64,000 nucleotides of DNA from Podarcis tiliguerta (Eukaryota): NCBI GenBank assembly GCA_965153285.1, contig OZ229112.1; one strand, written 5' to 3'. The position numbers are program-made. This document shows positions 11,101-61,200 of this stretch, piece after piece. Every line of letters begins with the position of its first letter. The stretch's first letter is position 1.

Positions 11101-14100
11101 AGAGCCTATCATATTTCACCCTAATCCTAAGCGATTGCTTTAGCCAGGCAGTCTCTTTTATTGTTAAAGAGAATCCTTCTGAAGATTGTTCCCCAGGCTT
11201 TTCATTTAAGGGCAAACAGGATGGACGGACTCAAGAATCAGAATGGCAGTGCCATTTCCTTGCAGAAAAGAGAAAGCCGTTCCAATTTGTATCCTGGTCT
11301 GGCAACTTGTTAGCAGCATGTACATCTCCCTGATCCAAGAAGCTGGCTTTTTTTGTTTAAAGAAAATGTGATAGAAGAGAAGGCTGGATTACAAGCATAT
11401 CGCTGGAGAATGTTACTGAGCAGAGGAGATGGACTTTGGTTGAAACCTGGAAAAAACGGAAAGCTGTGTCCCTCGGTGTTGTGCTTCTACACAATCCTCA
11501 TCTGAAGGTTTTTTTCAGGGTGCCGTGGTGTTTTTCTTTCTTCCGCTGTGTTTTGTTTGGCAGCTCACAAAGTACTGTCGGCAGAAGCAGCCTCCGGGAA
11601 TTGTACAGGCACAATTGCTTGGTTCTGTGCGCCATGCAGATTTAAACAGTGCATGTGTTTTCTTTAAGTTTAAAGAAACTTGGTTATTTTATATTAGATA
11701 AAAAAAAAAAAAAAGGAGAAAGCTACGAGGGTGGTTTTGAAAGTTGCATACTCCAGTGGATTTATTTATTTTTGGGGGGCGAGACATGAAAAAAGAAAGT
11801 GCCTCAAAGTCATTCCGGTTGAAACATAATCCAGGATCCCTCTCGCGTGCTGTGAGCTGGATAAACTTCTCTACCTTGTCTAAGCAGACAAAAAGGCTGT
11901 TTCGCAGCGATGGTGAACTCACATCTATATGTGGGCAGCAGGTAGAAGAGGATGAGAGCTGGACCTACAGACCCCAGCACAGAAACGGTGATTTTGTTGT
12001 TGTTTTCAAATATGCAGTTAATCATTTAATTGTATTATTGCTTATAATCTTTTACTTAATTAAATCCCTTCCCCCTCCTTCCATTTTCCCCACATGCTGC
12101 CTTTCATTTGACCTTTTGGTCTCTGTGGCAAGTGTTTCCTCATAGTGTATCCTTCTGCTTTGTAGTATGCTACTCAAAGCCCTCATTCCCACCAATCAGA
12201 AACAGTGTTCTCATATCAAGGCTTCTTAACATGGCAGCTGTATTGTGATAACTGTCCAGCCCGTAGCAAGGAGTTGCATAGAGATTTACAACTGTATAAA
12301 TGAGTTAAAACAAAGCAGAACTATGGTTTTACCAAAGTAATTTATTTTCCATACATTTTTGGAGTGCACGGGGTGGTGGTAGGGCTAGATGGATATGTGT
12401 AGAACAGAGATGAACAGAAAGCTTGTGCACGTAAGGGTGGGTGTCATAAAGCAAAAGGCAAAAAGGATTTCCCCCCTTTTCCACCTGTTGTAGGGGCATG
12501 AAATGTGCTGCAAGGCGGGAAGAAGGGAATGGGCATGTATATGTTGATAATGGTTATGACATTGCAGTAGTAGCTGCTGATCTGCCTGTATTTTGCTATG
12601 CAGATATATCATATATTCTGTGCACTTCTGCAGACAGTGAAATAGACTTTTCACACAGCACGACCCTGCATACTTATCACCAGAAGCACACAATCATGTT
12701 GTATCATACTGTTGTGGTGCACTCAGCTTGTGGGGACTTTATCACCTGATCCTCCTCCTAGTCCCTTCTCAAACCCTAGCTATATACTTCTATCTTACTA
12801 ATCATATGTATTTTGGAAGTATACCCGATATTTAATCAGAACCTGGCAGTACAGATGCATGGGGTTCATTGCATGTTGAAGTAATCATTATCCATTTTGG
12901 CAGATTTTGAAAGAACATATAATCCAGCGCATTACCAACTAGTCCATCAGACGGTGATGGATTGTCTTCCTGATAGCCTTCTGTGCTTAGCAGGTGATAG
13001 TCTGTTGGATGCAGCTTGTTGACACTTCCATTGGAAATAGTAGACTCCATAAAAAACCAGTGAGCAAATAGCACACCAATGCTCAAACGTAGGTTTTAAA
13101 AGAGTGCATTGTGGGTAGTAGTAAGGTATTTTTATAAAGTTTTCGTAAAGAACAACCTTGCTGGATCAGACCAAAAGTCCTTTTTTAAAAGCATCCTGCT
13201 CTTGGTGTAGAAAGTGAAAATGGGGGAACATGTTGTTTTGATGCTGCATGTGTTTGTGAAGGGGGCCTCAGGACAGCAACACCCTTACCTGGATACTGGA
13301 TTTGGCTTTGGTAGTGGTGCTTTTTGCTCTTAAGCTTGTTATTTTACTTTTATGGATGGCTAATAGAAGTGCCAAGGATGTGGGTGACGCTGTGGATTAA
13401 ACCACAGAGCCTAGGACTTGCCGATCAGAAGGTTGGCGGTTTGAATCCCCGTGACAGGGTGAGCTCCCGTGGCTCAGTCCCAGCTTCTGCCAACCTAGCA
13501 GTTTGAAAGCACGTCAAAGTGCAAGTAGATAAATAGGTACCACTCCAGTGGGAAGGTAAATGGCGTTTCCATGCGCCACTCTGGTTCTCCAGAAGCGGCT
13601 TAGTCATGCTGGCCACATGACCCGGAAGCTGTCTGCAGACAAACGCCTGCTCCCTCAGCTTATAGAGCGAGATGAGTGCCGCAACCCCAGAGTCGGCCAC
13701 GACTGGACCTAATGGTCAGGGGTTCCTTTACCCTTTAGCTAATACAAGTGCCAGCAAACTGCACTATTCAATTTCTGAGATGCTTATCCCCTTCTGTGTC
13801 CCTATTAGGTACTCTTATGGTCTGTTTTTATTCTGTTTTGTTCCTGTCTTGTTCAACAGATCTGAGTAGGGGTGGGAGAGAGTAAGTTTCCAGTGACAGC
13901 TGATAAAGTCAGACCTGAAATTTCAGGCTCTGTGACCCTTGGATGTCACTCTTATGAGTAAAGAATACTGTGAGGGTTTTTTTTAGTTGGGACGCACCCT
14001 TTAATTACGAGTGCTCTCTTCTTAAATACATTCACCGTTAGTCCATCCAAACCTCAATAATCATACACTGAAACTGAATTAGAACATAACAAGCTAATGA

Positions 14101-58200: not shown

Positions 58201-61200
58201 GGTTACTTACTGCATTTAGATTTAGAAATTGCGGGTGGTATTCCAACTAAGTGGGAGACCTATTTAAATTAATTAACTGGGGCATTTTGAGTACCACACT
58301 GCACTTTTCTCAGTGTGGTACTCAAAATGCCCCAGTTAATTAATTTTCTCCTTAAATTACAGTATTAGCAGCATCCTTTTCGTTTCTCTTCTAAGTCTTT
58401 CCTCATACCTTTATCATACAGTTACCCACTATACACCTTTTTTGTATAAGCAGGCCACAAGTAAGAACCCATTATACAGATAAGAAACAAAACCTATAGT
58501 AATTATCTGGGGTGATGTTTCCCATTTCGCCACCTGAGGTGAAACAGGAAAGTGTAACCCTACCCTGCTTCCACCAAAGCATCCCTTCCTTGGGTCATGT
58601 GGCAATGCACAGCAAGATATTGTGAGGTGTGGGCGAGATCGCGCCAGAAGCTGCCACTGCTGCTTCTCCACTGGTGGGCAGGAGAGCCACACACCTCCTT
58701 CCCAGAGCCTGGCACCTTTTAACTTGCTTTGGGAAGGCAGTGCAATGAGTGGGACTGGGCATCAAATTTTGGCTTCCTTCACCCCCATGATACAAGGCAG
58801 TGTATGGTCCATGGGTTCCCTGTTGAAGTACAGTGGTACCTCAGGTTGCGTACTTAATTCGTTCCGGAGGTCCGTACTTAACCTGAAACTGTTCTTAACC
58901 TGAAGCACCACTTTAGCTAATGGGGCTTCCTGCTGCTGCTGCACCGCCGGAGCCCAATTTCTGTTCTTATCCTGAAGCAAAGTTCTTAACCTGAAGCACT
59001 GTTTCTGGGTTAGCGGAGTGTGTAACCTGAAGCGTATGTAACCTGAGGTACCAACTGTACTCTTGTGGCCTACTTGGTATGAAAAGTTGGCGTGCCCTGA
59101 ACTGAGGTGTCATCGCTATGCTGTTGCTATCCAAATTGGATTATTGTTAACAAAGTCTAAATGGGCTTTGGAAATTACAGTGGTACCTCGGGTTAAGAAC
59201 TTAATTCGTTCCAGAGGTCTGTTCTTAACCTGAAACTGTTCTTAACCTGAGGCACCACTTTAGCTAATGGATCCTCCTCCTGCTGCCGCTGCCCCATCAG
59301 AGCACGATTTCTGTTCTCATCCTAAAGCAAAGTTCTTAACCTGAGGTACTATTTCTGGGTTAGCAGAGTCTGTAACCTGAAGCGTCTGTAACCCGAGGTA
59401 CCACTGTATTCAGAAACTTCAGTTGGTGCAAAAAGCAATGATAATACTGATTTATTACTTTACAGATCATTTCATTCCTATCTCTTCCATCTGCACTGGC
59501 TTCTAGTTTGTTTCTGATTACAATACAGTTCAGAGTTCTGGTTCTCATCTACACATCCCTAAATGGATTGGGACCAGGATATCTGAAGGACCACTGTCTC
59601 CCATGTGATTCTCTCTCACATGCATTCAGCATTGGAAGTCCTGCTATGTGTCATGCTGAGATCTTTGTATTTTGTAGAGCTTTCAGTTTGGGCCAATGTC
59701 TTTTATCCAGTTATACAAGCTTTCAGAGAAAATTAGAAATGGAATTGTTTCTGGAAAACTTTCACGTGCAAATTAGAGTAAGTTGCACCATGATTTTTTT
59801 CCTGGTGCTTCAGAGAGTGATCTTAATTTTCATGTTTATTTTTCTTGTATGTGAGAAACAAAGCTAAAAACTTGGAAACTGCCTAATAATGAATCTGCAG
59901 TTGACACCCATTCATTGTTACTAATGAACTTACGTAATGTAAAATTTTCTGCAAAAAATAAAGCACTAAAGTTTCTGCCCATAGCTGAACGAGGAATCAA
60001 AGCCCGTTGATGAGCAGGGTTATTTGCAATCCTTGTGTGGTGCTTTCAAGTCACTTATTCTTCTCTCCCCCCCCCCCCCACAACAGACAACCTTTGACAG
60101 GCGGGGTAGGAGAGCCCACCTGTCAATCACCTCTCCTCATTATGACATCAGATGATTGACAGGTGTGTTATCCTACCCATCTGCTAAACATAGGCCATGG
60201 GGAGGGGGCTGATATCTGATCCGACAGAGCAAAATTCTCCCCCGCTCCTGTTGTAGAGCATAACTTCAGGTTAATAGCAGCATTCCTTTCTAATTTGACT
60301 CTCTCTTATTTACAGCTGTCTCCAATCTAGATGAAGAGAGCAGATGGACAGTCCATTACACTGCACCCTGGCATCAACAAGAGAATGTGTTTCTACCCAC
60401 CTCAAGGCCACCTTGTGTAGAGGATCTGCACCGCCAAGCCAAGCTGAACCTGAAGTCGGTACTAAGAGGTAGGAAGTTGACAATAATAACACACCATATC
60501 ATTACAGATTTTTTTCTTTAGCAGTAAAACTCTGTGCCTGCTTGCGTCTGCCTGCTTTCGCATCCCTGTGACCTCTTGTACTTTTATCAAGGAACTAAAC
60601 AAGTCAAGGAGGGAAGAAAATACCACACCAGTGTTTCAGATGATTATACTCTTCCTGCTGTAACGTGGTCTCCATAAAACTTATTTATGCAACGTGCAGC
60701 TCTAGTTGGTTTCAGCCAGACACAATAATATCATCACAAGTTCCAATTGTAGCTGAAGAGGAGGCTGGAAAAGAAAGTCTGAAGAGCCATCCTAGAAATG
60801 AGATTGAACCCATCCCGCTGATTACAAGTTTCAGGACAATCTCTGATATATGGAACATGTGGAATCAAACAAAGCAGTTTAAACTTTTGACTTTGAAATA
60901 TTCTGATTTTAGAGTTCAGGTGTGAAGTGCTGAACAAATATATTAGGTCAGTAAATATGTATTTGTCAGAGTGCATACTGCTTCTGTCCTTTCTTCTCAA
61001 AAATGTCTGAAATATATTAGTAAAAATAACTCAAGCTAGGTTAATCCAGTAACTCATAAAAAGTATAATTGCATTTAACCTGATTTGGGTTTTTTTATTT
61101 TAAACCATACGTTTTGGGTGATACGGAGGTATGTTCAATTGGGCCACATAGAGGGGGAGAGGTTGCCAATGACAGCTTCCCTTTGAGGCAAGATGGCTAA

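What the first reader, a model, noticed from the sequence alone, without database searches (positions are those of the whole stretch)
11786..60468. Array of variable phase-1 first exons feeding one constant exon
Seen: three well-supported and up to five candidate ATG-containing segments over ~46 kb all end in phase-1 donors matching the exon at 60316, whose leading CT completes Ala, Thr or Ser. Known: NHS-family genes use alternative first exons, and only the WHD-completing exon (not seen here, presumably upstream) gives a full Scar/WAVE homology domain. Inference: like plectin or UGT1-type arrays, promoter choice would cap a partial WHD with different targeting peptides. This lizard may use more of them than are annotated.
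Basis: partly seen in the sequence, partly recalled or inferred. Interest (0 to 1): 0.7.

Follow-up and report, generated by a model that had tools for sequence, protein, structure and literature searches.

The report
Alternative first exons of lizard NHSL1
This is the 5' part of a lizard NHSL1 gene, where four unrelated start exons, each conserved in other vertebrates, can each be spliced to the same second exon; this layout is already described for the human gene, so the finding is real but ordinary.

Summary
The constant exon is real: 60316-60468 (+), phase 1 in and out, and it matches positions 1-50 of Pfam NHS. It is 100% identical to lacertid NHSL1, so the window is lizard, not human.

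Four ATG-bearing exons upstream end in phase-1 donors and match annotated NHSL1 N-termini of other species:
- MKKE-type, 11786-11987, profile E 6e-42.
- MFCLK-type, 25941-25956.
- MIAY-type, 38493-38688, E 1e-29; found in 16 birds and a frog.
- MVVF-type, 56288-56345, E 1e-10.

Their last bases (G, G, A, A) plus the leading CT of exon 2 give Ala, Ala, Thr, Thr, as in the relatives. No Ser-completing exon is supported.

The bare pattern of ATG, open frame and phase-1 GT occurs at chance level: 72 sites against 65 and 52 in the other phases. Only homology separates real exons from noise. Several other candidates lie in transposons.

The WHD exon is absent from the window.

Human NHSL1 is already described with eight alternative exons 1 joined to a common exon 2. 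The finding is therefore already known. Promoter use, and any lizard-specific extra exons, could not be tested.

The parts
11786..11987 (+). MKKE-type alternative first coding exon: ATG, 67 codons, then G; donor ACG|GTGATT. With the CT of exon 2 it gives Ala.
   Evidence: tblastn: all 41 MKKE-type named N-termini hit 11786-11983/6; the best is Lacerta agilis X6, E 1e-40, 95.5% identity. Profile HMM E 6.2e-42. 35 of 67 residues are invariant over 18 sequences from lizards to mammals. An in-frame stop lies 16 codons upstream and there is a purine at -3.
25941..25956 (+). MFCLK-type alternative first coding exon: ATG, 5 codons, then G; donor AAG|GTAAGG. It gives Ala. The 5' limit of the exon is unknown. 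The frame stays open back to an ATG at 25725, but that upstream part is not conserved as protein.
   Evidence: 5 of the 6 named MFCLKA-type N-termini match 5/5 residues here. MFCLK occurs once in the six frames of the window, against 0.014 expected from base composition. The donor scores PWM 11.2, the top 0.1% of 3929 GT on the + strand.
38493..38688 (+). MIAY-type alternative first coding exon: ATG, 65 codons, then A; donor CAA|GTAAGA. It gives Thr.
   Evidence: Colinus P0101, E 5e-10. The same N-terminus is annotated in 16 birds (for example Gallus gallus isoform X12) and in the frog Ascaphus truei. Profile HMM E 1.2e-29. 21 of 65 residues are invariant, including M1-V5, C7, C16 and C26. An in-frame stop lies 18 codons upstream.
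56288..56345 (+). MVVF-type alternative first coding exon: ATG, 19 codons, then A; donor AGA|GTAAGT. It gives Thr. It lies 3970 nt upstream of exon 2.
   Evidence: All 16 MVVF-type named N-termini (birds and mammals) hit here, E 9e-8 to 2e-6. Profile HMM E 9.8e-11. An in-frame stop lies 23 codons upstream; Kozak context tctgaaATGG.
60316..60468 (+). Constant exon 2 of NHSL1, 153 nt, phase 1 in and phase 1 out.
   Evidence: Sequence read and translated. Pfam NHS PF15273 positions 1-50, E 2e-32. 1281 proteins at E<=0.001, with 100% identity to Lacerta agilis and Zootoca vivipara NHSL1. The 20 nt ahead of the acceptor AG are 80% pyrimidine.

Best explanation
The window is the large 5' intron region of a lacertid-like lizard NHSL1 gene. 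It holds four alternative first coding exons (MKKE, MFCLK, MIAY and MVVF types). They are unrelated to one another. Each has its own ATG and a phase-1 donor, and they lie 48.3, 34.4, 21.6 and 4.0 kb upstream of the single acceptor of exon 2.

Transcription that starts at or upstream of one of these exons would splice that exon's donor to exon 2. The result is an NHSL1 isoform whose common body, the Pfam NHS region that begins exactly at exon 2, carries one of four short N-terminal peptides in place of the WHD/Scar-homology exon. That WHD exon lies outside the window, presumably upstream.

Shown here: the exons, their phases, their homology to annotated N-termini in other tetrapods, and the absence of the WHD exon from the window.

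Inferred: that each exon has its own promoter, that the exons are used mutually exclusively, and that the peptides alter localisation or partners. The two longer ones are predicted with low confidence and little or no secondary structure, so they more likely act as short linear motifs than as domains.
For: - Exon 2 is the start of Pfam NHS and is 100% identical to lacertid NHSL1.
- Of the 120 listed hits, 23 unnamed ones were dropped. Among the 96 named hits that have the exon 2 motif, the N-termini fall into MKKE 41, WHD 22, MVVF 16, MFCLKA 6 and other 11.
- tblastn of 92 N-termini against the window places MKKE (41 of 41), MVVF (16 of 16), MFCLK (5 of 6) and the one MIAY-type protein on the + strand, each ending at a phase-1 GT.
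- Profile HMM E-values are 6e-42, 1.2e-29 and 9.8e-11.
- MIAY-type N-termini are annotated in 16 birds and 1 frog.
- The junction residues in relatives (A, A, T, T) equal those predicted from the window's last exon bases plus CT.
- In-frame stops lie 16, 18 and 23 codons upstream of three of the ATGs, and only weak in-frame acceptors are present.
- Passages read in papers: human NHSL1 has eight alternatively spliced exons 1 (1a-1h), and exon 1a carries most of the SHD; exon 2 is common to all isoforms.
Against: - There is no direct evidence of transcription starts. CpG o/e in the 500 nt before each ATG is 0.25-0.49 at GC 0.41-0.48, against a window mean of 0.244, so none is a CpG island.
- One bird model (Willisornis vidua X1, P0130) chains the MIAY-type exon into an extended MVVF exon and then exon 2. 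The exons are therefore not strictly first or mutually exclusive in every model.
- The donors of three of the four exons are only moderate (PWM 6.2-7.3).
- The lizard MIAY peptide found no protein in the word-indexed search (weak evidence).
- None of the 5 squamate proteins retrieved carries the MIAY, MVVF or MFCLK N-terminus. They are cluster representatives only.
Confidence: 0.85

Rival explanations
1. The ATG exons are first coding exons but not transcription-start exons. Non-coding leader exons or upstream coding exons are spliced onto them, so there are fewer promoters than variable exons.
For: There is no CpG island or other start signal at any of the four. The 5' limit of the MFCLK exon is open, with the frame open for 85 codons upstream. 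The bird model P0130 uses the MVVF exon as an internal exon after the MIAY-type exon.
Against: In-frame stops lie 16-23 codons upstream of three of the ATGs. The only phase-compatible AG sites there have poor pyrimidine tracts, 0.40-0.60. In the lizard, the AG at 56264-56265, the place where the bird model extends the exon, would put MVVF out of frame (my reading of the sequence). Papers describe the family's isoforms as arising from alternative promoters for NHS.
Confidence: 0.15
2. Beyond the four, the lizard uses further lineage-specific first exons among the many ATG/phase-1-donor segments.
For: 15 phase-1 candidates have donor PWM >=8, for example those ending at 29044, 37251 and 45471. 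Mammals carry lineage-specific predicted N-termini: 4 of the 11 'other' types.
Against: Phase 1 is not enriched over phases 0 and 2 (13/15/14 at PWM >=8). None of the 92 N-termini tested supports any further + strand site at E<0.05 apart from one weak alternative-frame match inside the MFCLK exon region. Several candidates sit in repeats: 13672 and 28270 in repeat D7, 6785-7436 in a reverse-transcriptase ORF, and 30861-30930 inside an element flanked by inverted terminal repeats.
Confidence: 0.2
3. Only the MKKE exon is real. The other three are chance matches or gene-prediction artefacts propagated between annotations.
For: MFCLK is only 5 residues, with tblastn E 0.40 on its own. The models in relatives are mostly automatic predictions, named 'isoform X..'.
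Against: Independent sequence conservation between lizard, birds and frog for MIAY (E 1.2e-29, first 12 residues nearly identical) and between lizard, birds and mammals for MVVF (E 9.8e-11) cannot come from annotation transfer. MFCLK is expected 0.014 times by chance, occurs once, and abuts the best donor class in the window.
Confidence: 0.03

Closest known systems
Human and mouse NHSL1 alternative exon 1 array (exons 1a-1h, isoforms NHSL1-A to -H)
   Same: Several alternative exons 1 are spliced to a common exon 2, and only exon 1a carries most of the Scar/WAVE homology domain (passages read). The MKKE, MFCLK and MVVF N-termini of the window are the ones annotated in mammals.
   Different: I could not map the lizard exons to the human letters 1a-1h. 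The map is in a figure (Fig. S1A of bioRxiv 10.1101/2025.03.13.643034) that is not held. Among the hits I saw, the MIAY-type exon occurs only in birds and a frog, not in mammals. That may be a limit of the searches.
NHS, NHSL2 and NHSL3 genes (paralogues)
   Same: NHS isoforms differ by first exon through alternative promoters, and only exon 1 encodes the WHD (passages). In NHSL3 only exon 1 is alternative (1a-c) and exon 2 is common.
   Different: The window is NHSL1, not a paralogue. All named best hits are NHS-like protein 1, except one 133-aa turkey protein labelled KIAA1522 homolog.
Plectin-type alternative first exons (recalled knowledge, no call)
   Same: The first exons are unrelated in sequence, and each supplies a different short N-terminus to a common body. 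The four exons here share no similarity.
   Different: A targeting role for the NHSL1 peptides is not shown.
UGT1A / clustered protocadherin variable-exon arrays (recalled knowledge, no call)
   Same: Many 5' exons are each joined to the same downstream constant exon.
   Different: Those variable exons are tandem paralogues that encode a whole domain. Here the exons are not paralogous. They encode 5-67 residues with no Pfam match (three of the four tested), and the two modelled gave low-confidence models.

Membership tests
NHSL1 gene (NHS family, Pfam PF15273) | The common exon 2 encodes the start of the NHS family region | tested here: met
   P0001 matches PF15273 positions 1-50 of 1485, E 2.1e-32, 112.7 bits against a cut-off of 27.
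NHSL1 gene (NHS family, Pfam PF15273) | Orthology to NHSL1 rather than NHS, NHSL2 or NHSL3 | tested here: met
   The named hits among the best 120 are NHS-like protein 1. Identity is 100% to Lacerta agilis X6 and Zootoca vivipara X3. The MKKE exon is 95.5% identical to Lacerta agilis NHSL1.
NHSL1 gene (NHS family, Pfam PF15273) | Several alternative exons 1, each with its own ATG and a donor in the phase of the exon 2 acceptor | tested here: met
   Four exons are placed by homology, all with phase-1 donors. The junction residues agree with relatives.
NHSL1 gene (NHS family, Pfam PF15273) | An exon 1a that encodes the WAVE/Scar homology domain | tested here: inconclusive
   It is absent from the 64 kb window (WHD profile best E 4.3, antisense). 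Lizard relatives carry it (Zootoca X3, Hemicordylus X4), so it presumably lies upstream of the window, which I cannot read.
NHSL1 gene (NHS family, Pfam PF15273) | Each alternative exon 1 is driven by its own promoter or transcription start | not testable with these tools
   No expression data were available. No CpG island lies at any exon.
UGT1A / protocadherin-type variable exon array | The variable exons are tandemly duplicated paralogues | tested here: not met
   All-against-all blastp gives no pair below E 0.3. blastn of the exons with flanks gives only 11-20 nt matches.
Plectin-type alternative first exons | Unrelated first exons supply different N-terminal peptides to one common body | tested here: met
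   no similarity; each is a conserved N-terminus.
Plectin-type alternative first exons | The N-terminal peptides direct different subcellular localisation | not tested
   Sequence features only: invariant Cys in MIAY, Cys3 in MFCLK, net charge +6 in MVVF. The hydrophobic moment of MVVF is not above shuffles (p 0.13).

The most novel reading that the evidence does not exclude
The four unrelated N-terminal peptides are ancient, separately conserved membrane-targeting or lipidation signals. MIAY has three invariant cysteines in a peptide with no confident fold and is shared by frog, birds and lizard. MFCLK has a cysteine at position 3. MVVF is hydrophobic and polybasic. On this reading, promoter choice in NHSL1 decides where a WHD-less regulator of the Scar/WAVE complex acts. 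In addition, the MIAY-type exon may be used in squamates without being annotated there.
Probability: 0.2. Interest if true: 0.45.

Novelty: already known. Interest (0 to 1): 0.15.

Why it matters
The window confirms that the multi-promoter 5' architecture described for human NHSL1 is shared by a lizard. At least four of the alternative N-termini are conserved across amniotes, and one reaches back to frogs, which argues that each N-terminus has a function. That gives modest support to work on isoform-specific roles of NHSL1 in lamellipodia and cell migration. It does not open a new question. The architecture, the WHD-only-in-exon-1a rule and the common exon 2 are already in print.

Tried and rejected
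Which exons are annotated in lizards therefore stays open.
- the lizard MIAY peptide searched against longer proteins gave 2 candidates and none at E<=10. The tool itself calls this weak evidence. The bird and frog homologues came instead.
- I looked for CpG islands as promoter marks and found none at the four exons. The CpG-rich patches (1600-2200, 27800-28500, 30500-31200, 36300-36800) coincide in part with repeats.
- Rfam at gathering thresholds and the tRNA scan each found 0.
- the amphipathic-helix idea for MVVF is not supported. The hydrophobic moment is 0.40 against 0.25 +/- 0.13 for shuffles, and 13% of shuffles reach it.
- AlphaFold2 models of the MKKE exon (mean pLDDT 61, one short helix at 33-38) and the MIAY exon (pLDDT 51, no secondary structure) show no confident fold. 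I ran no fold search on them.
- Ser-completing fifth exon: I found no homology support. Candidates whose last base is T (for example 30861-30930, 45423-45462, 52294-52336, 53577-53688) rest on the chance-level pattern alone, and 30861-30930 lies in a transposon-like element.
- Elephant X1 N-terminus (P0054): it matches 30398-30333 on the minus strand at E 0.001. I rejected this because it is on the wrong strand and is not significant over 92 queries.
- The donor PWM I used is built from recalled consensus frequencies, not a trained model. I use it only for relative ranking.
The closed collections metagenome contigs and viral contigs were not used, and genome contigs (bacteria and archaea) is irrelevant here. 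No vertebrate genome DNA was available, so nucleotide-level conservation of promoters stayed unchecked. Supplementary files and figures of the papers, which hold the exon 1a-1h map, could not be seen.
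Full report
**The constant exon.** The sequence at 60316-60468 (+) has the acceptor ttatttacag|CT and the donor AGAG|gtagga. It is 153 nt long. Its first two bases (CT) complete a codon begun upstream, 50 full codons follow, and one base is left over, so the phase is 1 at both ends. The 50 codons (P0001) match positions 1-50 of Pfam NHS (PF15273) at E 2e-32. A search against longer proteins gave 1281 proteins at E<=0.001 among 1285 candidates. The named ones among the best 120 are almost all 'NHS-like protein 1', with 100% identity to Lacerta agilis X6 and Zootoca vivipara X3. 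The window is therefore the NHSL1 gene of a lacertid-like lizard. It is not human: the MKKE exon is 95.5% identical to Lacerta agilis and about 76% to a human reference. The window contains no N.

**The pattern against chance.** A mechanical scan for an ATG, an open frame and a GT donor after 3n+1 bases finds 61 donors (>=8 codons, my PWM >=5). With >=5 codons the + strand gives 65/72/52 donors in phases 0/1/2, the minus strand gives 41/50/47, and a first-order Markov control gives 52.4 +/- 6.6 for phase 1. At PWM >=8 the counts are 13/15/14. The PWM rests on recalled consensus frequencies and serves only for ranking.

**Homology picks out four exons.** One named hit lacks the exon 2 motif. 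In the remaining 96, the N-termini before the exon 2 motif fall into MKKE-type 41, WHD-type 22, MVVF-type 16, MFCLKA-type 6 and other 11. A tblastn of the 92 N-termini of >=5 residues against the window gave the following.
- All 41 MKKE-type hit 11786-11983/6, with E down to 1e-40.
- All 16 MVVF-type hit 56288-56347, with E 9e-8 to 2e-6.
- 5 of 6 MFCLKA-type hit 25941-25955, matching 5/5 residues.
- One 'other' N-terminus, from Colinus virginianus P0101, hit 38529-38690 at E 5e-10 (alignment).

A search with residues 1-56 of P0101 returned 17 proteins among 24 candidates: 16 birds, including Gallus gallus isoform X12, and the frog Ascaphus truei. Most begin MIAYVHCLPADP..., while the window reads MIAYVHCLPSDP.... 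Profiles built from these groups and run against all 4304 six-frame segments of the window give E 6.2e-42 (MKKE), 1.2e-29 (MIAY) and 9.8e-11 (MVVF), each at the expected place. The next hits score E >= 0.37. MFCLK is too short for a profile. It occurs once in the six frames, against 0.014 expected, and it is followed at once by G|GTAAGG, a donor in the top 0.1% of 3929 GT.

**Junctions.** The last exon bases are G (11987), G (25956), A (38688) and A (56345). With the CT of exon 2 they give Ala, Ala, Thr and Thr, exactly the residues before VSNLD in the relatives. The WHD-type proteins have Pro there, so that exon is also phase 1. No supported exon gives Ser.

**Are they first exons?**
- In-frame stops lie 16, 18 and 23 codons upstream of the MKKE, MIAY and MVVF ATGs. 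All four ATGs have a purine at -3.
- Phase-compatible AG sites upstream have poor pyrimidine tracts, 0.25-0.65, against 0.80 for exon 2.
- No direct start-site evidence is available, and none of the four lies in a CpG island.
- One bird model (Willisornis vidua X1, P0130) runs from the MIAY-type exon into an extended MVVF exon and then exon 2. In the lizard the corresponding AG at 56264-56265 would put MVVF out of frame (my reading of the sequence).

'First coding exon' is therefore shown. 'Own promoter' is inferred.

**What is not in the window.** A profile of 19 distinct WHD N-termini finds nothing; the best hit is E 4.3 and antisense to exon 2. The exon after exon 2 is also absent. Lizard relatives do have WHD isoforms (Zootoca X3, Hemicordylus X4), so that exon presumably lies upstream of the window.

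**Nature of the peptides.**
- The four exons are not similar to each other in protein or DNA. The array is therefore not a UGT1A- or protocadherin-type set of paralogues. It resembles plectin-type unrelated first exons; that comparison is recalled, not tested.
- The MKKE, MIAY and long MFCLK open frames match no Pfam family.
- Conservation is high. 35 of 67 MKKE residues are invariant over 18 sequences from lizard to mammals, with identity to the window of 73-96%. 21 of 65 MIAY residues are invariant over 14 sequences, including C7, C16 and C26, with identity of 46-65%.
- AlphaFold2 with these alignments gives low confidence: mean pLDDT 61 with one short helix for MKKE, and pLDDT 51 with no secondary structure for MIAY. 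The peptides look like linear motifs rather than domains.
- MVVF has net charge +6, but its helical hydrophobic moment is not above shuffles (p 0.13).
- A membrane-targeting or lipidation role (Cys3 of MFCLK, the three Cys of MIAY, the polybasic MVVF) is my speculation.

**Other candidates.**
- The ATGs at 13672 and 28270 lie in an interspersed repeat (D7).
- 6785-7436 lies in a reverse-transcriptase ORF (RVT_1, E 2e-26).
- 30861-30930, a Ser-completing candidate, lies in a CpG-rich 434-nt element flanked by 15-nt inverted terminal repeats.
- The other high-PWM candidates (ending at 29044, 37251, 45471 and others) have no support beyond the chance-level pattern.

**Comparison with what is known.** I read passages only.
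- Law et al. 2021 (PMC8478917): several different exon 1 sequences in human NHSL1, only one with the Scar homology domain, and exon 2 common to all isoforms.
- bioRxiv 10.1101/2025.03.13.643034: 25 predicted isoforms, eight alternatively spliced exons 1 (1a-1h), and exon 1a encodes most of the SHD.
- NHSL3 has alternative exons 1a-c (bioRxiv 10.1101/2025.04.03.647056).
- NHS isoforms differ by first exon through alternative promoters, and only exon 1 encodes the WHD (PMC2876887; PMC13578402).

The figure that maps exons 1a-1h and the supplements are not held, so the lizard exons are not assigned letters.

**Verdict.** It is already known, and interest is low.

Noticed in passing
window 6653-8154 (+): A degraded non-LTR retrotransposon. 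The ORF at 6653-7486 matches Pfam RVT_1 (E 2e-26) and continues in another frame at 7465-8154. It accounts for the GC-rich stretch at 4-8 kb and for several spurious ATG/donor candidates.
   Followed up: partly
window 30745-31178 (+): A CpG-rich element of 434 nt bounded by 15-nt terminal inverted repeats that agree at 14 of 15 positions (30745-30759 and 31164-31178). It looks like a non-autonomous DNA transposon (MITE). It holds the Ser-completing candidate 30861-30930 (read; CpG).
   Followed up: partly
window 17022-17271, 54086-54335, 58826-59403 (inverted), 1892-2063: An interspersed repeat family of about 220-250 nt, with copies 85-91% alike in both orientations and two adjacent copies about 350 nt apart at 58.8-59.4 kb. 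It is SINE-like, but no tRNA-like part was found.
   Followed up: no
P0130 (Willisornis vidua NHSL1 isoform X1), compared with window 56260-56290: A bird gene model splices the MIAY-type exon to an upstream-extended MVVF exon and then to exon 2, so two 'first' exons are chained. The equivalent acceptor in the lizard would be out of frame.
   Followed up: partly
window 25769-25831 (+, frame 2): Residues 13-33 of the long N-terminus of the wallaby NHSL1 X3 model match the window in a different frame from MFCLK (E 0.009, 11 of 21 identical). This hints that the 5' part of the MFCLK exon is conserved as nucleotide sequence (untranslated region or promoter) rather than as protein.
   Followed up: no
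window 11700-11714 (+): A run of 15 A lies about 70 nt upstream of the MKKE ATG, after an AT-rich stretch. Its significance is unknown.
   Followed up: no
P0008 (Meleagris gallopavo, 133 aa): A short turkey protein with the MVVF N-terminus followed by the NHSL1 exon 2 peptide is named 'KIAA1522 homolog' (KIAA1522 = NHSL3) by its source. This may mean that MVVF-like N-termini are shared among NHS-family paralogues. I did not test this.
   Followed up: no
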